Shown: piece after piece, positions 20,473 through 64,000 of the stretch
How positions within the stretch are numbered: the first letter of the stretch is position 1
How the letters are laid out: each line of letters starts with the position of its first letter
From: Escherichia coli phage Wa28
Sequence record: LC788710.1
DNA length: 64,000 nt
Direction: 5' to 3' (one strand)
The notes under the pieces: model-generated
The model's database searches: none
The model's input: only the letters and a program-made list of their open reading frames with translations
What the model was told of the DNA's origin: nothing
Position numbers and translations under genes: made by a program

Positions 20473-20757
20473 TTACTTGCTCTGCATTTCAGCGCGAAAC
20501 TTTTTCATCTTACGAGTTTTACGGAAGAAGAAGTAAGTAGCTACTGGCCCGAACAAGGTGTCCATGATAAGCATACCTGACATAATGAATTTGAACATCT
20601 TTTCATCGTCAAATTCTGCTAATTCTGGTGGACGATATTTGTTTATAACATAAAGAATAACATCTTTATTTTTAGAGATATACAGATCATCAATCAGGCT
20701 GTAAATCGCGACAACTGCACCAATAACAAACCACAAAGCAAATGGAGAGATAATCAT
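20473..20757 (-). CDS. membrane protein (94 aa)
   Basis: ORF. Confidence 0.45.
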   Translation of the reverse strand: MIISPFALWFVIGAVVAIYSLIDDLYISKNKDVILYVINKYRPPELAEFDDEKMFKFIMSGMLIMDTLFGPVATYFFFRKTRKMKKFRAEMQSK

Positions 20758-21047
20758 TTAAGATCCTTTTCATCAATTAGAATAGTAACAAACAATGGTA
20801 CACAACCTGGGCACAAATCTTTACCAAACTTTTCCATCACATCCCAAAGTGGTAAAGTAATCACACCATTCTTAACTCTAGAATCTGTATACTCAGCTAT
20901 TCGTTTATTTGCAAAATCAGTAGCTAAATCTGAGTTATGCTCGTAGCTATAATCAGTCCAGAATTTAACATGATCCTTTCTAAGATATTCTAGCACAGCA
21001 TCAGTTGCTGGAATCTGTACTAGACTGTTGAGATTTAGCTCTTTCAC
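20754..21047 (-). CDS. hypothetical protein (97 aa)
   Basis: ORF. Confidence 0.5.
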   Translation of the reverse strand: MKELNLNSLVQIPATDAVLEYLRKDHVKFWTDYSYEHNSDLATDFANKRIAEYTDSRVKNGVITLPLWDVMEKFGKDLCPGCVPLFVTILIDEKDLK

Positions 21048-21498
21048 GTTCTTCTCTCCGACGTTTGCGTTCTTTCATCATGTAAGCTGCTACAACTTCA
21101 TGGTAGTAGTCGTTAATGTTACCTTCAGGCAAGAAATGCTTAATCGTTTCTAGCTGGCAGACAACACGGTAAAGATGTTTATTTGGTAAACATAATTTCA
21201 TGCCCATAACAAATCCAGAGAAGCCTGGAACACTGAACATGGGTTGGGCTTCTACGTTGCCCTCTGGATTGATACTAAGTTCAATCGAGATGCCCATTTT
21301 CATGCTATAAAGCTGACAGCCTTCACCATTGCCAAATCTTGACCAAACAGTGAAGTCCTCATCTATCTGATCTTGGATTTCTTCGACTGCATGTTTAATT
21401 CTAGGGTCTAAATTACTCATCTTCACCTTCAAAGCCGCAGTCATAACGGCAAGTAAAAGAATCAGAACTATTAGTACGTTGAGTAGTGATTTCACCAC
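21001..21498 (-). CDS. hypothetical protein (true start may be 21420)
   Basis: ORF; internal Met with GAAGGTGAAG SD. Confidence 0.5.
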   Translation of the reverse strand: MVKSLLNVLIVLILLLAVMTAALKVKMSNLDPRIKHAVEEIQDQIDEDFTVWSRFGNGEGCQLYSMKMGISIELSINPEGNVEAQPMFSVPGFSGFVMGMKLCLPNKHLYRVVCQLETIKHFLPEGNINDYYHEVVAAYMMKERKRRREERERAKSQQSSTDSSN

Positions 21499-21712
21499 GT
21501 TTACTAACAGTAATAGCCGGAGTAGAGAAGTTTTTATTAGTATAGATTTCTACTTTGCCATTACGTTCTTTAACATCACGTACTTTACCATATTCGGTGG
21601 TAATGCCGTTCTGCTGAACTTTAACATTACCATTTTTCATAGAAACTTTGGTAGATGCCAGAGAACCGAAACTAACTGCTGAAATTACCAGAGCAATAAT
21701 AAACTTATTCAT
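21413..21712 (-). CDS. secreted protein (signal peptide MNKFIIALVISAVSFGSLAS)
   Basis: Start moved to internal Met with GAGGAAG SD. Confidence 0.45.
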   Translation of the reverse strand: MNKFIIALVISAVSFGSLASTKVSMKNGNVKVQQNGITTEYGKVRDVKERNGKVEIYTNKNFSTPAITVSKRGEITTQRTNSSDSFTCRYDCGFEGEDE

Positions 21713-21986
21713 CAGGATCTTCCTCATTACAGTCACGGCATACATCATAATCGTTGTAAGAATGTTCGTGCGCTTCACACCACCAGCCACATTCGTCACA
21801 CAGAAAGATTTCGGTCTTTTCAATGGCTTGGCCTAGTAATTCGTAGGCTTCATCATGTGTAATCTTCAGGCTACAAACATCAGCTACTTGTTGAACAATC
21901 AGACTCCCTACTTTGTGGTAGGACATGCAGGTTCCTTGTGCATCATGCTCAAGGACGTGGATAGCACAGTCTAAGCGATTTTTCAT
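21705..21986 (-). CDS. Cys-rich zinc-binding protein (93 aa)
   Basis: CDECGWWC...CRDC. Confidence 0.5.
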   Translation of the reverse strand: MKNRLDCAIHVLEHDAQGTCMSYHKVGSLIVQQVADVCSLKITHDEAYELLGQAIEKTEIFLCDECGWWCEAHEHSYNDYDVCRDCNEEDPDE

Positions 21987-22016
21987 TTCAAAGCCCTCTC
22001 ATCAATTTATATAAAT

Positions 22017-22045
22017 ATTATATCAAAAGGAGAGGGTTTTAGCAA
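22017..22045 (-). promoter_or_regulatory. early promoter TTGCTAA-17-TATAAT
   Basis: Motif read. Confidence 0.65.
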
Positions 22046-22062
22046 ATGAATTATTTACGAAA

Positions 22063-22458
22063 TTAGTCGTAAACCCACCATAACCCACGCTTACGCAGGT
22101 CATGATCACGGTTATAGTCATAATTTTCTGGATCTTTCAGTACACGGTGAAGTTCGCGACGGCTTCCCTGACGAACCATTTTGTTAGAATGCCACTTAAC
22201 ACTTCTGCTAATAGAATCCCACCAGTGTCCATCTTTCTTCTCGTTACGGATGATATTTTCCTGAATCTCCTTCTCAATTTCATCCCAAGTTTTAGCCCAT
22301 GCTTCATTGGAGCGAACTTGATAATATTTCCACTGCTTACCATCCCTATCCGTGTAGATATACGGAATACGGATATTAGTGCTATGAAAATTATAAGTAG
22401 AACGATGTGCAGCACGCCAGTGACGATCACCAGATTGTTTACGGTATGTACGGCTCAT
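22063..22458 (-). CDS. hypothetical protein (131 aa)
   Basis: ORF. Confidence 0.55.
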   Translation of the reverse strand: MSRTYRKQSGDRHWRAAHRSTYNFHSTNIRIPYIYTDRDGKQWKYYQVRSNEAWAKTWDEIEKEIQENIIRNEKKDGHWWDSISRSVKWHSNKMVRQGSRRELHRVLKDPENYDYNRDHDLRKRGLWWVYD

Positions 22459-30824: not shown

Positions 30825-30853
30825 ATTATACAGAACTTTAAGCGGTTAAGCAA
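30825..30853 (-). promoter_or_regulatory. early promoter TTGCTT-17-TATAAT
   Basis: Motif read. Confidence 0.65.
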
Positions 30854-33637: not shown

Positions 33638-33666
33638 ATTATACAGAAAATTTCGGCATTAAGCAA
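33638..33666 (-). promoter_or_regulatory. early promoter TTGCTT-17-TATAAT
   Basis: Motif read. Confidence 0.65.
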
Positions 33667-33674
33667 GTGAAATT

Positions 33675-33971
33675 TTACTGAACACTGCACTGATACACTT
33701 GTTTGATACGTGTCACTGACTTCTTAGTTGGATTGATAGAAGAACCTTGCCACCAACGTGACTCTGAGCTAAGAACAGCGCCAGGAACAGCCTGCTCTTT
33801 TGGCAGAACAATATCAAAACACTGTTCACCCATATTATCTTTAATGTGTGACCAAATATCCAAAGTAAATCGTTCTAACTTATTACAAACCTGAACTTGA
33901 CAAAGTTCCTGTTGCGGAGCAGCAAATACAGAAGTAGATACTAGAGCCAATGCAAGTACAATGCGTTTCAT
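33675..33971 (-). CDS. secreted protein (signal peptide), 98 aa
   Basis: MKRIVLALALVSTSVFAAP. Confidence 0.5.
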   Translation of the reverse strand: MKRIVLALALVSTSVFAAPQQELCQVQVCNKLERFTLDIWSHIKDNMGEQCFDIVLPKEQAVPGAVLSSESRWWQGSSINPTKKSVTRIKQVYQCSVQ

Positions 33972-34001
33972 GTTTGATTCCTCTCTCGAATTTATAAATA
34001 T

Positions 34002-34030
34002 ATTATACAGAAATTTTCTATATTAAGCAA
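34002..34030 (-). promoter_or_regulatory. early promoter TTGCTT-17-TATAAT
   Basis: Motif read. Confidence 0.65.
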
Positions 34031-34077
34031 GTGAAAATTTCTGTATAATAGCCCTCGCTTAGAGGGCTATAACTACT

Positions 34078-34770
34078 TTATTTGTTAACGCGTACAAAGT
34101 ATCCTTTATAAGCTCCAAGAATAGAGTTGCCTAAGAATACTAGCCACATTGCTAGGATTGCGTAAGATGCACCTGTAGATTGAGCAGTTACAAGCCAAAT
34201 GTACACAGTACCAATGTTAATAGCAATCCAAATCAGCCATTGTTCAGCATATTGTTTGACCATAAGCCACATAGCAATCACACTACCAACCGCAGTAAAT
34301 GCATCCAACATTGGGAATGGATCAGCCGTAGTAGCAAGGAAACTACCATAACCTAACGTGGCTACTGCTAAAATCCCTAGAGTCAGCAAAGCTTGAGCTT
34401 TTGTCAGAACTTTAGTTGGAACATCCGGTAGATTACTTGGCTTATTTTTATGCCACAAGTACATTCCGTAGAACTGCATAGGAACGTAGTACAATAGGTT
34501 TAGTGCTGCGTTACCATAAAGATCAGCATTTAGAGCTGTAATACCGTAGGTCAGAACACCTACCAAACCCCAGACATAGTTGGAAACACGTCCTTTTGCA
34601 ACCAGAATAACACAAACCACATTGGTTATTGCAGTAGCCCAATCTAGAGCTGTACCATTATAGTTTGCTAAACTAATGAAGACAACCGCTATGAACAGCC
34701 ACAGATATTCCAGAGGTTTCCAGTTTTTAAAGTCATTTACGAGATAGTTAGTCATATTAAAACTCTCCAA
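34078..34770 (-). CDS. pnuC: PnuC-family nicotinamide riboside/NMN transporter
   Basis: Multi-TM; EQWLIWIAINIGTVYIW resembles E. coli PnuC ENWLLWVIINVISVVIF. Confidence 0.75.
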   Translation of the reverse strand: MESFNMTNYLVNDFKNWKPLEYLWLFIAVVFISLANYNGTALDWATAITNVVCVILVAKGRVSNYVWGLVGVLTYGITALNADLYGNAALNLLYYVPMQFYGMYLWHKNKPSNLPDVPTKVLTKAQALLTLGILAVATLGYGSFLATTADPFPMLDAFTAVGSVIAMWLMVKQYAEQWLIWIAINIGTVYIWLVTAQSTGASYAILAMWLVFLGNSILGAYKGYFVRVNK

Positions 34771-35830
34771 CGTTAAAGTGATGAATCAGCCAGTCTACTG
34801 CGTTTACTGCTTCGTCCATACGAACTTTGTAGTCCGGAGAGTCGATGTAAACAGTACGCCCTTCAGGGAACTGATTTGGAAATTCTTTCTTCATCTGCTC
34901 GAACAGTTCAGAAGTAATTGAACGATCGGAGTTAATACGTAAACCATCATCTACCCACTTGACAGTAGGCGCTAGAACAATTACTAAATCGTAATGTTCT
35001 TCTTTTGCAATTGCTGTAACCACAGGGTTCTTACTATGTTCATAAAGTCTGTGGTAGAACTCAGTAATAAAAGCATTTGTATCCACAAACATGATCTTAT
35101 TTGCAGTACGTTCTGCTTCAAACTCTAGCTCTTTGTGTCTGAACGCAATTTTACTATAGTCTTCGCTGGTAAGCAGATTTTCGTTACCAACTAGATCAAC
35201 TTCACAATACGTTCGGCCATATTCTTCTACCCACGAAGTGTTGTATAGCTTCGCAAGGTATTTTGTTAAAGTAGTCTTTCCTGAGCTTTCAGTCCCAATG
35301 ATTACAACCTTACGCACGTAATCTTTACGAGCTACGCTAGGAAGAAACTCCCAATACTTCATAAGATCATTACGAATCATTGTAGCTGAGATTGGAACAC
35401 GAGTCCGATCAGAATCTACAATATAATGACCAAACTTCGGCAGATATTTCTTATATTCTGCATCATAGTCTAGTTCGCTAGAGAAAATGGTGATCTCAGG
35501 CAAATGTCCGTAATTTTCATTAAGGATTCTAGCATATTCCGGCCAACCATTCGGATATTCAGGAATATCATCTTCAATAATGTACTCTACCGAAATGTGC
35601 TCAATATCCGCGTAAGTTTGTTCTAACCAACGAAGTCGATTCTTTAACTGTAATACTTCCTGATCACGAGTGTTCTGCTTATCCAGCCAACGATTATCAT
35701 GACTAACTACAACAATAACTCGTTCACACATAGTTGCTGCTGTGTTTATTAGGTTAATATGACCACGCGTTAATGGCGCGAACTTACCAATTACTAGACC
35801 AGTCTTAATCATATTTGATTCCTCTCTCAA
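34757..35830 (-). CDS. nadR: NadR-like bifunctional NMN adenylyltransferase / ribosylnicotinamide kinase
   Basis: N-terminal GKFAPLTRGH nucleotidyltransferase motif; central GTESSGKTT P-loop. Confidence 0.75.
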   Translation of the reverse strand: MREESNMIKTGLVIGKFAPLTRGHINLINTAATMCERVIVVVSHDNRWLDKQNTRDQEVLQLKNRLRWLEQTYADIEHISVEYIIEDDIPEYPNGWPEYARILNENYGHLPEITIFSSELDYDAEYKKYLPKFGHYIVDSDRTRVPISATMIRNDLMKYWEFLPSVARKDYVRKVVIIGTESSGKTTLTKYLAKLYNTSWVEEYGRTYCEVDLVGNENLLTSEDYSKIAFRHKELEFEAERTANKIMFVDTNAFITEFYHRLYEHSKNPVVTAIAKEEHYDLVIVLAPTVKWVDDGLRINSDRSITSELFEQMKKEFPNQFPEGRTVYIDSPDYKVRMDEAVNAVDWLIHHFNVGEF

Positions 35831-35842
35831 ATTTATAAATAT

Positions 35843-35871
35843 ATTATACAGAGAATTTAGCGTTCAAGCAA
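35843..35871 (-). promoter_or_regulatory. early promoter TTGCTT-17-TATAAT
   Basis: Motif read. Confidence 0.65.
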
Positions 35872-36024: not shown

Positions 36025-36059
36025 CAGAAAAGCCCGCGCTCTCGGAGGAAACGCGGGCT
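36025..36059 (-). terminator. rho-independent terminator (GCCCGCG..CGCGGGC)
   Basis: 7-bp GC stem with A run on plus. Confidence 0.7.
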
Positions 36060-36083
36060 TGGTTCGAAGATTACGTGTAACTA

Positions 36084-37028
36084 TTACTTGTTACGCATAT
36101 CCATGATCATTTGACCATCGTAGCCAGTACCAACAACAGTCTGCGGTACACCACCTTGGTATTTTTCAGCACGAAGCATTTCAACTTCCAGCTGCTTCCA
36201 ACGAATCATTTCAGGAGTAATGGTACGTTGCAGCGCGGCGTTAGCTTCAGCTTCTTTCTTAGCTGCGTACAGTTTAGCATCTGCGTCACGTTCGTTAGCT
36301 ACTGCCATGTTTTCACGAGCAGAACGATCAGCTTCAGCTTGCTTAACTTTCTGCTGTGCTTCTTGTTCAACACGAGCCAATTCAGCTTTAGCGGCGTTAA
36401 CTTGTTCTTCACGAACTTTTGTGTTTTGTACCTGTTCCATGATTACAGGTGGCAGAGTAATATCCTGAAGGAATACTTGCTTAACCGTGTAACCATAAGG
36501 ACGCGCGTACTCTTCTACTTCTTGCTGAATAGCAGTTTGCAGTTGAGCCTGAATCTTAGCGTCGAACAGATCTTGTGCTTTTGGTACAGACTTACCAAAC
36601 TCACGAATCGTAGATAGCATCTTCTCTTCAACGTACTTGTTCAGAGCTTGATCCTGAGTACCTGCGTTAACACGGTTCATAGGAGCTTTAGCACCATCAA
36701 ACTGCAACATAACGGTAATGTCAACAGTGGACTTAAACTTATCCTGGCTAGGAACCTGGAGTTTATCCAGTTTCATAGAAATATCTTTCGTACTAAAAGT
36801 ATCAAAAGAGGCGAATGGGTTGACAATATGGAACCCCGGCAATACAGGATTAGGACTAACTTTACCCAGGAAAGTCTGAGTTTTAACCGTACCGTCCTGA
36901 ACAACTGTATAGGAATTGAGAGCCAGAATAAGAGCGCCAAGACCAACTACAGCACCAACACCCCAACGTTTAATAGTACGAATTACTTTTTGATCGGAAG
37001 TCAGTTCTTTAGTGTTTTTAGTAAACAT
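36084..37028 (-). CDS. SPFH/band-7 (prohibitin/HflC-like) membrane protein
   Basis: N-terminal TM, SPFH core, Ala/Glu/Lys-rich coiled-coil tail. Confidence 0.75.
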   Translation of the reverse strand: MFTKNTKELTSDQKVIRTIKRWGVGAVVGLGALILALNSYTVVQDGTVKTQTFLGKVSPNPVLPGFHIVNPFASFDTFSTKDISMKLDKLQVPSQDKFKSTVDITVMLQFDGAKAPMNRVNAGTQDQALNKYVEEKMLSTIREFGKSVPKAQDLFDAKIQAQLQTAIQQEVEEYARPYGYTVKQVFLQDITLPPVIMEQVQNTKVREEQVNAAKAELARVEQEAQQKVKQAEADRSARENMAVANERDADAKLYAAKKEAEANAALQRTITPEMIRWKQLEVEMLRAEKYQGGVPQTVVGTGYDGQMIMDMRNK

Positions 37029-38881: not shown

Positions 38882-38910
38882 TATTATACAGAAATTTAAG
38901 GCTTTAAGCA
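38882..38910 (-). promoter_or_regulatory. early promoter TTGCTT-17-TATAAT
   Basis: Motif read. Confidence 0.65.
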
Positions 38911-38919
38911 ATCGAATTT

Positions 38920-53951: not shown

Positions 53952-53980
53952 TTGCTTTCGAGCTAAAACTTATGTATAAT
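53952..53980 (+). promoter_or_regulatory. early promoter TTGCTT-17-TATAAT
   Basis: Motif read. Confidence 0.7.
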
Positions 53981-54299: not shown

Positions 54300-54503
54300 A
54301 TGAAAAACGTAAAACATCTTAAATATCGCTTAATTTACAACGGACGTATGGAAACAGAAGATCTAGCTCAGCTAGCGATCAATTCAGATGAAGTTACAGT
54401 TCGTGCTTTGTCCATCGAGAAGCTGCGTGCTTCTTACGAAAATCGTATTATGGAATTGGAGGAAAAACTTTATGGACTTCTTGAATCAGAATCTAAAAAG
54501 TAA
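54300..54503 (+). CDS. hypothetical protein (67 aa)
   Basis: ORF. Confidence 0.45.
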   Translation: MKNVKHLKYRLIYNGRMETEDLAQLAINSDEVTVRALSIEKLRASYENRIMELEEKLYGLLESESKK

Positions 54504-54666
54504 TTTAGAAAATATGCTTATGGAGCAGTGGAATGCTGGGTATAATGCTGGAGTAGCTACCTGTATTGCTGGTTTGGATATGCTTATTAAGCAAGAGAAG
54601 GTTCGCCCAGAAGAAGCAATTCTGCTCCAAAATATCATCGAAGGATTCAAGCAAGGAATCGTATAA
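54471..54666 (+). CDS. hypothetical protein (65 aa; start MDFLNQ)
   Basis: Internal Met of track ORF 54388..54666 with GGAGG SD. Confidence 0.4.
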
Positions 54667-55517
54667 TGCGTAGACTAATCGTTGTTAGTGGTGCAGGTTT
54701 GAGTGTAGATAGTGGTGTTCGTGCTTTCCGTACTGATACTGCTAGTGGGAAATCCTTATGGGATGAGTACGATCTAGAGGAAGTATGTAGCTTGCCTAAC
54801 TTTGAAGCTGGCTTCCGTCGCTTCTGTGGTGAAGATGATCCTAACTACTTCAGTGCTCGTTTCCCTGGCATTGATGAAGATGGTAACGATCTGTATCTCA
54901 AGACTCATGAGTTCTACAACATGCGTCGTCAGGAATTACAGACTGTTGAGCCTAACATTGCCCATCTGCGAATTGCAGAATGGTTCCAGCGTTATGGTGC
55001 GGATAGCGTGAAGAACTTCACTACTAACGTTGATGACCTTCTGGAACGTGCTGGTATCCCTCGTGATGAAATCATTCACGCTCACGGGTACTTGAAAGAG
55101 GTGATCTATCGTCAGGGTCGCAACCAAATCATTGAAGATGTTGGGTATACTGCGATTGCCCCTGAGGATTACGAATGGGTAAAACCAAACGTAACATTCT
55201 TTGGTGAGACGGCTCCGTGGTATATGGGTCAGATTAACCTGTTTGATACACTTACTAGCAATGATATGGTTATTGTAGTAGGTTGTAGCAACCAAGTAAT
55301 CGACTTCAACTGGGAGCTATTTCCTGCTGTATGTCGTGGAACTAAGATGATGGTTGTTAACCCACAAGTTCGTTATGACGAACAGCTTGAGTATGAGAAA
55401 CGTGGTGTTACTGTATGGCGTGCTGGAGCTGCCGAAGTTTTTGGTAATAAACACTTTATTGATCAAGTTGAAGCTTTTATGGAGGGAAATATTTATGTCC
55501 CAGAAAAGCATGTGTGA
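54666..55517 (+). CDS. Sir2-family (sirtuin-like) NAD-dependent enzyme, no zinc-ribbon
   Basis: GAGLSVDSGVRAFR, TTNVDDLLERAG, HAHG, FFGE, VVGCS motifs. Confidence 0.7.
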   Translation: MRRLIVVSGAGLSVDSGVRAFRTDTASGKSLWDEYDLEEVCSLPNFEAGFRRFCGEDDPNYFSARFPGIDEDGNDLYLKTHEFYNMRRQELQTVEPNIAHLRIAEWFQRYGADSVKNFTTNVDDLLERAGIPRDEIIHAHGYLKEVIYRQGRNQIIEDVGYTAIAPEDYEWVKPNVTFFGETAPWYMGQINLFDTLTSNDMVIVVGCSNQVIDFNWELFPAVCRGTKMMVVNPQVRYDEQLEYEKRGVTVWRAGAAEVFGNKHFIDQVEAFMEGNIYVPEKHV

Positions 55518-60804: not shown

Positions 60805-60833
60805 TTGCTTTCAGGAAAAATTTTCTGTATAAT
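60805..60833 (+). promoter_or_regulatory. promoter TTGCTT-17-TATAAT, near-exact match to classical T5 PN25
   Basis: Sequence CATAAAAATTTTATTTGCTTTCAGGAAAAATTTTCTGTATAATAGATTCATAAATTTGAGAGAGGAG recalled from PN25. Confidence 0.85.
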
Positions 60834-63093: not shown

Positions 63094-64000
63094 TGACTAA
63101 TGTAAAAGAATTTATTAAACGCTGTCAAGAAGCATATTATCAAGGTATGTCTTTAATCTCTGACGAAGAATATGATCGTCTGATTAAAAGATTCCCACTA
63201 GAGGAAGAAATCGGACCGAAAGGTGATATTCCTCATTTGTATCGTATGTATTCTTTGCAGAAAGTCTATTACGGTCGCGGTGATAAAGCTCCATTCAATC
63301 CATTAGGTCAGGTTGAAACTGATAAGTTAGATGGTTGTGCGATTTCTCTATTATATATTAATGGTGAATTTGTTCAAGCGTTAACTCGTGGTAACGGTAT
63401 TCTAGGGAATGATGTAACGCATAATGTTAAAATGCTGAACATCCCCAAAACTATTTCCCAAAAAGTACCAACTCAAATCACTGGTGAAGTTCTCATTACT
63501 AAAGAAGTAGAGAACAAACGTAACTACGCTTCGGGTGCTATTAACCTGAAAGACAGCGATGATTTCATCCAACGTATTGGTGAAGGTGGTTTAATCTTCG
63601 TTGCATACGGTATCCAGTGTTCAGCGGAAACAGTCGGTATTACAGAAGCCTATTTAAAAGATATGCTTTGGCTAGAGAATGAGAACTTCTTGACAGTTGT
63701 TAATGTTCGTTCCTTCTTTAAATGGATTCCGACAGATGGTAAAGTTGTTCGCATTAACGACAACAATAAATTCTTCCGTGAAGGTTGGACTAATAAATTT
63801 CCTCGTGGTGCATTTGCTATTAAAGAGGATGAAGAAGGCGAAATTACCACACTTGTTAAAGTTGAATGGCAAGTAGGGGCTTCTGGTAAAGTAACTCCAG
63901 TTGGTTATTTCGAACCGGTGATTATTGATGATGCCACAATCGTTAAAGCAACTCTTAATAACGTTGATTATATTAACGCTCTCGATTTAGAGATCGGTTG
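63094..64000 (+). CDS. ligA: NAD-dependent DNA ligase, N-terminal part (runs off window)
   Basis: Adenylation-site motif KLDGCAISLLY (KxDG) as in LigA-type ligases. Confidence 0.7.

What the first reader, a model, noticed from the sequence alone, without database searches (positions are those of the whole stretch)
34078..35830. Phage-encoded NAD+ salvage pair: PnuC transporter plus NadR-like NMN adenylyltransferase/riboside kinase
Adjacent genes encode a PnuC-type transporter and a two-domain NadR-like enzyme, forming a complete nicotinamide riboside to NMN to NAD+ route. With the NAD-dependent ligase and the Sir2-like protein elsewhere in the window, the phage appears to manage the NAD+ pool itself. 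This would supply its ligase and could counter NAD+-depleting abortive-infection defences by a route distinct from known phage NAD+ reconstitution pathways.
Basis: partly seen in the sequence, partly recalled or inferred. Interest (0 to 1): 0.75.

Follow-up and report, generated by a model that had tools for sequence, protein, structure and literature searches.

The report
Phage NAD+ salvage operon (NARP3)
This T5-like phage carries a transporter gene and an enzyme gene that import nicotinamide riboside and turn it into NAD+, but the same pair was published in August 2026 as the anti-defence pathway "NARP3", so the finding is correct and no longer new.

Summary
On the minus strand, window 34757-35812 encodes a 351-aa NadR-like enzyme with an NMN adenylyltransferase domain and a ribosylnicotinamide kinase domain but no HTH domain. 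One base after its stop codon, 34078-34755 encodes a 225-aa PnuC transporter.

The window comes from an Epseptimavirus (Demerecviridae, T5-like). The two proteins are 350/351 and 223/225 identical to Bas30_86 and Bas30_87 of Escherichia phage TrudiRoth. Yan et al. (Sci Adv, 12 Aug 2026; PMC13464706; PDB 9X6H/9X6F) characterised those two proteins biochemically, structurally and in vivo as "NARP3". All 23 residues named there are conserved here.

The functional reading is therefore supported, but the pathway is already known. Osterman et al. had also predicted it in 2024.

What remains open: NARP3 has never been tested in its native phage. The proposed link to the phage's NAD+-dependent ligase and Sir2-like protein is untested, and both genes also occur in relatives that lack the cassette.

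I add that the cassette is a separate transcription unit bracketed by a 39-nt promoter/5'-UTR direct repeat, and that one natural "empty site" phage keeps a single repeat copy.

The parts
34757..35812 (-). nadR-like gene: 351-aa bifunctional NMN adenylyltransferase (residues 1-166) and ribosylnicotinamide kinase (residues 167-351), with no HTH domain. Orthologue of Bas30_86.
   Evidence: NF005988 254 bits (cut-off 201), matching from profile position 59. PDB 9X6F/9X6H E 2e-241. 350/351 identical to Bas30_86, the one change being V161A. All 20 named site residues are conserved, as are the TRGH, ISATMIR and Walker A GTESSGKT motifs.
34078..34755 (-). pnuC gene: 225-aa nicotinamide riboside transporter. 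Orthologue of Bas30_87.
   Evidence: PF04973 E 4e-43; TIGR01528 120 bits (cut-off 42). Matches N. mucosa PnuC 4QTN at E 1e-31. 223/225 identical to Bas30_87 (I61V, M213L), with NR-binding residues N45, Q94 and N180 conserved. Multiple hydrophobic stretches. Against phage PSa2 it shows 40 synonymous and 3 non-synonymous codon changes.
35843..35871 (-). Predicted promoter of the operon: TTGCTT, 15 nt, then TGTATAAT (extended -10).
   Evidence: Exact match to the T5-type promoter pattern. At up to 2 mismatches there are 23 matches in the window against 1.4 expected, and nearly all point in the direction of the local genes. Sequence read. Function is inferred and was not tested.
35814..35852 (-). 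Copy 1 of a 39-nt direct repeat (-10 box, 5'-UTR and Shine-Dalgarno), immediately upstream of the nadR ATG.
   Evidence: Only two copies occur in the window at up to 3 mismatches, with 0 expected. Alignment.
33973..34011 (-). Copy 2 of the 39-nt repeat, immediately upstream of the next gene (33675-33971, a 98-aa protein labelled lipoprotein in some related records). It marks the downstream edge of the cassette.
   Evidence: Phage NG_S8 has a single copy joined directly to that gene.
36030..36060 (-). Intrinsic terminator of the upstream SPFH/band-7 gene, which insulates the cassette on its upstream side.
   Evidence: 12-bp stem followed by a T-rich tail. Folding energy -20.7 kcal/mol, z -4.0.
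34048..34070 (-). 9-bp GC-rich hairpin starting 8 nt after the pnuC stop codon. Probably a terminator or an RNA-stabilising hairpin.
   Evidence: Folding energy -17.1 kcal/mol, z -4.7. It has no T-rich tail, so a terminator function is uncertain.

Best explanation
This is a NARP3 operon, a phage NAD+ reconstitution pathway. It is a two-gene unit, probably expressed early, in a T5-like (Epseptimavirus) phage. PnuC sits in the inner membrane and lets nicotinamide riboside (NR) into the cell. The NadR-like enzyme phosphorylates NR to NMN with ATP in its C-terminal kinase domain, then adenylates NMN to NAD+ in its N-terminal NMNAT domain. The result is an NR-dependent refill of the NAD+ pool. This lets infection proceed in hosts whose defences (Sir2-HerA, DSR1) hydrolyse NAD+.

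Shown for near-identical proteins: NR binding, both enzyme steps, the crystal structures, NAD+ restoration, and phage rescue when the pair is expressed from a plasmid. Inferred here: that this copy behaves the same way, that it is transcribed from its own T5-type promoter with translational coupling of the two genes, and that it works this way during native infection.
For: Family assignments pass curated cut-offs. The NadR-like protein is 350/351 identical to Bas30_86 and to PDB 9X6F/9X6H; PnuC is 223/225 identical to Bas30_87. Every residue named in the paper as a site residue or mutated there is unchanged: NadR K10, F11, S37, E80, P84, Y86, G89, W90, Y93, F110, S112, D115, V139, I141, K163, D164, R167, K168, E230 and D275; PnuC N45, Q94 and N180 (residue lists). 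Published function of Bas30_86/87 (PMC13464706): PnuC binds NR with Kd about 0.66 uM and forms a trimer; Bas30_86 converts NR to NMN to NAD+ in vitro; co-expression restores NAD+/NADH depleted by Sir2-HerA and raises T7 and lambda plating 10^3- to 10^4-fold; neither gene works alone; rescue depends on NR with EC50 3.6-5.6 uM. Operon anatomy: own promoter, flanking hairpins, and a 1-nt gap between the genes with a Shine-Dalgarno sequence inside the nadR 3' end. pnuC is under purifying selection (40 synonymous against 3 non-synonymous changes versus PSa2). The gene pair stays linked in distant phages: adjacent at about 26% identity in Vibrio phage D25, and in reversed order in Bacillus phage Thrax4.
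Against: Nothing in the sequence contradicts this reading. There are caveats. The published in vivo work used plasmid expression with T7, lambda and Klebsiella phages, and the authors state that NARP3 was not tested in its native phage. The pathway needs external NR and does not recycle the ADPR and nicotinamide left by the defence, so its benefit depends on the environment. The V161A change lies two residues from K163 in the kinase site, and its effect is untested. Promoter and terminator calls are consensus matches only.
Confidence: 0.9

Rival explanations
1. The cassette mainly supports replication rather than countering defence. The phage's NAD+-dependent DNA ligase releases NMN at every ligation, and the Sir2-like protein consumes NAD+. 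The NMNAT domain would re-adenylate ligase-derived NMN, and PnuC would top up the pool, keeping NAD+ available for nick sealing during rapid T5-type replication.
For: The window holds a Sir2-family gene (54666-55517) and the start of ligase subunit A (about 63096 onward), whose sequence carries NAD-type ligase adenylation and OB domains. The cassette lies in the early tRNA region behind a T5-type promoter. That the ligase releases NMN and that NMNAT uses NMN is established enzymology, cited from my own knowledge. Bas30_86 converts NMN to NAD+ directly. The native role is untested.
Against: T5 has the split NAD-dependent ligase and a Sir2-like gene but no nadR/pnuC in the syntenic slot. The Epseptimaviruses NG_S8 and SUT_E1620 lack the cassette at this site; NG_S8 has a 99% identical Sir2-like protein, and both carry CDSs at the ligase position. 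The ligase therefore works without the cassette. Published rescue needed both genes and external NR, which points to import rather than internal recycling. Bas30_86 binds NMN weakly (Kd 6.8 uM).
Confidence: 0.2
2. The genes are carried-over host-like metabolic genes with no significant role in infection, or are decaying.
For: The cassette is accessory. It is absent from this site in T5 and in at least two Epseptimaviruses.
Against: Both reading frames are intact. All catalytic and binding residues are conserved. pnuC shows strong purifying selection. About 206-208 phage records carry copies at 80% identity or more, and roughly 780-790 records have homologues of each gene. Activity has been demonstrated for near-identical proteins.
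Confidence: 0.03

Closest known systems
NARP3 (Bas30_86/Bas30_87 of Escherichia phage TrudiRoth; Yan et al., Sci Adv 2026, PMC13464706; PDB 9X6H, 9X6F)
   Same: Same genus (Epseptimavirus), same gene order and same 1-nt gene junction. The proteins are 99.7% and 99.1% identical, and all named functional residues are identical.
   Different: There are three conservative substitutions: NadR V161A, and PnuC I61V and M213L. The phage genome is different: no record in the collection matches the window fully, and the best matches are about 97-98% identical over about 90% of a 24-kb stretch.
Bacterial NadR (E. coli/Salmonella trifunctional NadR, PDB 8X7F; H. influenzae NadR, PDB 1LW7) with chromosomal PnuC (N. 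mucosa PnuC, PDB 4QTN)
   Same: Same NMNAT and RNK folds and motifs: (H/T)xGH, ISxxxxR and Walker A. Same PnuC family. Same NR to NMN to NAD+ chemistry.
   Different: The phage protein has no N-terminal HTH repressor domain (only 6 codons of open frame lie upstream of the ATG). In the phage the two genes are fused into one operon, whereas in E. coli they are at separate loci.
NARP1 (Adps + Namat) and NARP2 (Nampt + Nmnat) phage NAD+ reconstitution pathways (Osterman et al. 2024, bioRxiv 10.1101/2024.02.11.579819)
   Same: Same outcome: the phage rebuilds NAD+ to overcome NAD+-depleting defences.
   Different: Different substrates and enzymes. NARP1 reuses ADPR and nicotinamide, and NARP2 uses nicotinamide and PRPP. 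This system imports external NR and includes a transporter.
Vibrio phage KVP40 NadV/NatV with PnuC
   Same: It is also a phage with a PnuC homologue (25% identity) and an NMNAT-containing enzyme.
   Different: NatV has a Nudix domain in place of the RNK domain, so its route goes through Nampt rather than NR kinase.

Membership tests
NARP3 (phage NadR-like + PnuC operon) | Two-gene cassette with the nadR-like gene immediately upstream of pnuC on the same strand | tested here: met
   nadR-like 34757-35812 (-) and pnuC 34078-34755 (-), separated by 1 nt. Same layout as bas30_0086/0087.
NARP3 (phage NadR-like + PnuC operon) | NadR-like enzyme with NMNAT and RNK domains and no HTH domain | tested here: met
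   The NF005988 match begins at profile position 59 of 411. Pfam CTP_transf_like covers residues 13-153 and AAA_28 covers 174-320 of the 357-aa ORF. The open frame extends only 6 codons upstream of the ATG.
NARP3 (phage NadR-like + PnuC operon) | Functionally validated residues of Bas30_86 (K10, F11, S37, E80, P84, G89, F110, S112, D115, V139, I141, E230, D275) and of Bas30_87 (N45, Q94, N180) | tested here: met
   All are identical in the window proteins.
NARP3 (phage NadR-like + PnuC operon) | NR uptake, NR to NMN to NAD+ catalysis, and restoration of NAD+ and phage growth against Sir2-HerA or DSR1 | not testable with these tools
   Shown experimentally only for Bas30_86/87. Inferred here from 99.7% and 99.1% identity.
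Bacterial trifunctional NadR (regulator + NMNAT + RNK) | N-terminal HTH DNA-binding domain that confers NAD-responsive repression | tested here: not met
   The protein aligns only to positions 59-407 of the NadR profile, and no upstream coding capacity exists. It is NadR-like and bifunctional, not a transcriptional regulator, although some phage records label it as one.
PnuC transporter family (PF04973 / TIGR01528) | Profile score above the curated cut-off, and a multi-helix membrane protein homologous to the solved PnuC structure | tested here: met
   PF04973 148 bits (cut-off 27) and TIGR01528 120 bits (cut-off 42). Matches 4QTN at E 1e-31 over residues 14-220. Hydrophobic stretches span the protein.

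The most novel reading that the evidence does not exclude
In its native Epseptimavirus, the cassette may do more than published. It could act with the phage's own NAD+ consumers, for example by re-adenylating NMN released by the split NAD+-dependent ligase. It may also be a mobile promoter-bracketed cassette that is gained and lost by recombination between its 39-nt promoter/5'-UTR repeats, which would explain its patchy presence among T5-like phages. Neither point is addressed in the NARP3 paper: searching its text finds no mention of ligase, direct repeats or Demerecviridae, and the authors say the native context was not tested.
Probability: 0.25. Interest if true: 0.35.

Novelty: already known. 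Interest (0 to 1): 0.15.

Why it matters
NAD+ depletion is a common bacterial anti-phage strategy, and phage pathways that rebuild NAD+ decide whether such defences work. This locus is a near-identical copy of the recently characterised third such pathway, NARP3, so it does not add a new principle. It does give a second natural genomic context for the pathway. It also shows that the cassette is accessory and repeat-bracketed within Markadamsvirinae. The one clear gap left in the literature is a deletion test in a native T5-like phage.

Tried and rejected
1. I rejected them in favour of the ATG starts at 35812 and 34755, on the basis of the Bas30 annotation, the crystal construct and the Shine-Dalgarno positions.

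2. I considered that the protein might be a true NadR regulator, as several GenBank records label it. I rejected this because the HTH domain is absent.

3. PSa2 annotates a small ORF next to the Sir2-like gene as a 'nicotinamide mononucleotide transporter'. The window equivalent (within 54388-54666) has no PnuC signal. It matches only phrog_5827 of unknown function, so the label looks like a mis-annotation.

4. I tested whether the cassette co-occurs with the ligase and Sir2-like genes. It does not: both are present in relatives without the cassette.

5. An internal promoter-like site lies inside pnuC (34657-34685). I treated it as chance, because the scan found fewer promoter-like sites in the region than in shuffled sequence (6 against 9.5).

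6. Searching the literature for 'NARP3' and for T5-like + PnuC found no further study beyond PMC13464706 and the 2024 prediction.

7. I did not run the large protein databases, structure prediction or fold search. A crystal structure of a protein differing by one residue already exists.

Full report
**What is at the coordinates**

The window has two adjacent minus-strand ORFs at exactly the stated positions: 34078-34770 (230 aa) and 34757-35830 (357 aa).

- The downstream ORF is a PnuC transporter. It matches Pfam PF04973 (E 4.4e-43), TIGR01528 (120 bits against a cut-off of 42) and phrog_1880. It also aligns with the solved Neisseria mucosa PnuC structure 4QTN (E 1e-31).
- The upstream ORF is NadR-like. 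It passes the NCBIfam NadR model NF005988 (254 bits, cut-off 201), but the match starts only at profile position 59, after the HTH domain.
- Pfam splits this ORF into a cytidylyltransferase-like domain (NMNAT) and an AAA_28 domain (kinase). PHROGs places it in phrog_3462.

**True gene limits**

The Bas30 annotation and the crystallised construct both start at MIKTGL... and MTNYLV.... In the window these are ATG 35812 and ATG 34755.

- Each ATG follows a Shine-Dalgarno sequence: GAGAGAGGAA before nadR, and GGAGAG inside the end of nadR before pnuC.
- With these starts the genes are 351 and 225 codons long and are separated by one base (TAA-T-ATG). This arrangement suggests translational coupling.

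**Where the window comes from**

The 2.5-kb locus matches 360 phage records. Nearly all are Salmonella or Escherichia T5-like phages of the genus Epseptimavirus (Demerecviridae, Markadamsvirinae), and most annotate the pair as an NMN adenylyltransferase or NadR plus PnuC. No record matches the window in full. The best matches are 97-98% identical over about 90% of a 24-kb stretch. The window also holds 29 tRNA genes, typical of the T5 early region.

**It is already known**

- The paper studies Bas30_86 (NadR-like) and Bas30_87 (PnuC) from Escherichia phage TrudiRoth, which is also an Epseptimavirus.
- **Transporter:** it is a trimer that binds NR with Kd about 0.66 uM, and N45, Q94 and N180 are essential.
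- **Enzyme:** it converts NR to NMN to NAD+ in vitro.
- **Structures:** crystal structures 9X6H and 9X6F were solved, and kinase-site and NMNAT-site residues were mutated.
- **In vivo:** co-expressing both genes restores NAD+/NADH depleted by Sir2-HerA and raises T7 and lambda plating 10^3- to 10^4-fold. It also counteracts DSR1.
- **Requirements:** neither gene works alone, and rescue depends on NR with EC50 3.6-5.6 uM.
- Osterman et al. had already proposed the NadR-PnuC operon of BASEL phages as a further NAD+ reconstitution pathway in 2024.

**How close this copy is**

- The window NadR-like protein hits PDB 9X6F at E 2e-241.
- Direct comparison gives 350/351 identity to Bas30_86 (V161A) and 223/225 identity to Bas30_87 (I61V, M213L).
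- All 20 named NadR residues and all 3 PnuC residues are unchanged.
- The TRGH, ISATMIR and Walker A GTESSGKT motifs are present.
- Function can therefore be transferred with high confidence, although it was not measured for this copy.

**Operon anatomy (my addition)**

- *Upstream terminator.* The upstream SPFH/band-7 gene ends in a strong terminator at 36030-36060 (12-bp stem, -20.7 kcal/mol, z -4.0).
- *Promoter.* A promoter TTGCTT-N15-TGTATAAT lies at 35843-35871. At up to 2 mismatches this pattern occurs 23 times in the window against 1.4 expected, and it follows gene direction, as T5-type promoters would.
- *Downstream hairpin.* Eight bases after the pnuC stop codon there is a 9-bp GC-rich hairpin at 34048-34070 (-17.1 kcal/mol, z -4.7). 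It has no T-rich tail.
- These calls are consensus and folding evidence only.

**A repeat brackets the cassette (my addition)**

- The 39 nt that cover the -10 box, 5'-UTR and Shine-Dalgarno sequence upstream of nadR (35814-35852) recur with one mismatch upstream of the next gene (33973-34011).
- No other copy exists in the window at up to 3 mismatches, and none is expected by chance.
- A query built as the predicted deletion product found Epseptimavirus NG_S8. That phage has the nadR-type -35 box and spacer, a single repeat copy, and then the downstream gene's ATG, with no nadR-pnuC.
- SUT_E1620 also lacks the cassette at this site. T5 carries unrelated genes (T5.076-078) in the same slot.
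- The cassette is therefore accessory. The structure fits gain or loss by recombination between promoter repeats. I recall from memory that this resembles the promoter/stem-loop cassettes described in T4-type phages, but I did not check that comparison.

**Selection and spread**

- Against phage PSa2, nadR differs at 4 of 1056 bases. pnuC differs at 46 of 678 bases, with 40 synonymous and 3 non-synonymous codon changes. This indicates purifying selection on pnuC and a mosaic boundary between the two genes.
- About 206-208 phage records carry copies at 80% identity or more. Homologues of each protein occur in about 780-790 records with similar host profiles.
- The two genes are adjacent in Vibrio phage D25 at about 26% identity, and linked in reversed order in Bacillus phage Thrax4. 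Linkage that survives this much divergence and a change of order supports functional coupling.

**The ligase and Sir2 argument**

- Both genes exist in the window. The Sir2-family ORF at 54666-55517 is closest to CobB-type deacylases. Its catalytic HG motif aligns, but the zinc-binding cysteines do not.
- The start of NAD-dependent ligase subunit A begins at about 63096.
- These are core genes of the group. T5 has both without the cassette in the syntenic slot. NG_S8 has a 99% identical Sir2-like protein and a CDS at the ligase position without the cassette.
- The cassette is therefore not required for the ligase. Whether it helps recycle ligase-derived NMN remains an open rival reading, which I rate at about 0.2.

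**Verdict**

The novelty claim has been overtaken by publication.

The main open question is the native-context role, which the NARP3 authors themselves list as a limitation. The repeat-bracketed cassette structure is a smaller open point.

Noticed in passing
window 33973-34011 and 35814-35852 (minus strand); L006 (NG_S8) 1600-1905; L007 (SUT_E1620) 1740-1960: A 39-nt promoter/5'-UTR/RBS direct repeat (1 mismatch) brackets the nadR-pnuC cassette. Epseptimavirus NG_S8 has a single copy at the same site with no cassette, which fits gain or loss by recombination between the repeats.
   Followed up: partly
window 54666-55517 (+): A 283-aa Sir2-family protein (PF02146, phrog_2162), closest to CobB-type deacylases (1S5P, E 2e-16). 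The catalytic HG motif aligns, but the zinc-binding cysteine segment is missing from the alignment. It is a core gene of the group: 52% identical in T5 (T5.102) and 99% identical in NG_S8. Its function in the phage is unknown.
   Followed up: partly
window about 63096-64000 (+), runs off the window end: N-terminal part of NAD-dependent DNA ligase subunit A (adenylation and OB domains, KLDG motif). In T5 and in PSa2 the ligase is split into two genes, ligA and ligB.
   Followed up: partly
whole window, e.g. 30825-30853, 33638-33666, 38883-38911, 53952-53980, 60805-60833: The T5-type promoter pattern TTGCTT-N15-TGTATAAT has 23 matches at up to 2 mismatches (1.4 expected). Its strand switches at about 51.8 kb together with gene direction and GC skew.
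   Followed up: no
window 54388-54666 (+); L001 40336-40530: The small ORF next to the Sir2-like gene is annotated 'nicotinamide mononucleotide transporter' in phage PSa2. It shows no PnuC signal and matches only phrog_5827 of unknown function, so the label is probably a mis-annotation.
   Followed up: yes
window 34078-35812 versus L001 (PSa2) 20479-22213: Divergence is sharply uneven across the operon: nadR has 4 differences in 1056 nt and pnuC has 46 in 678 nt. This suggests a recombination breakpoint at or near the gene junction.
   Followed up: no
window 36084-37028 (-) and 33675-33971 (-): The cassette's neighbours are an SPFH/band-7 membrane protein (the T5.080 homologue, truncated in NG_S8) and a 98-aa protein with a hydrophobic, signal-peptide-like N-terminus (phrog_6894), labelled lipoprotein in some related records. 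Neither has a known function.
   Followed up: no
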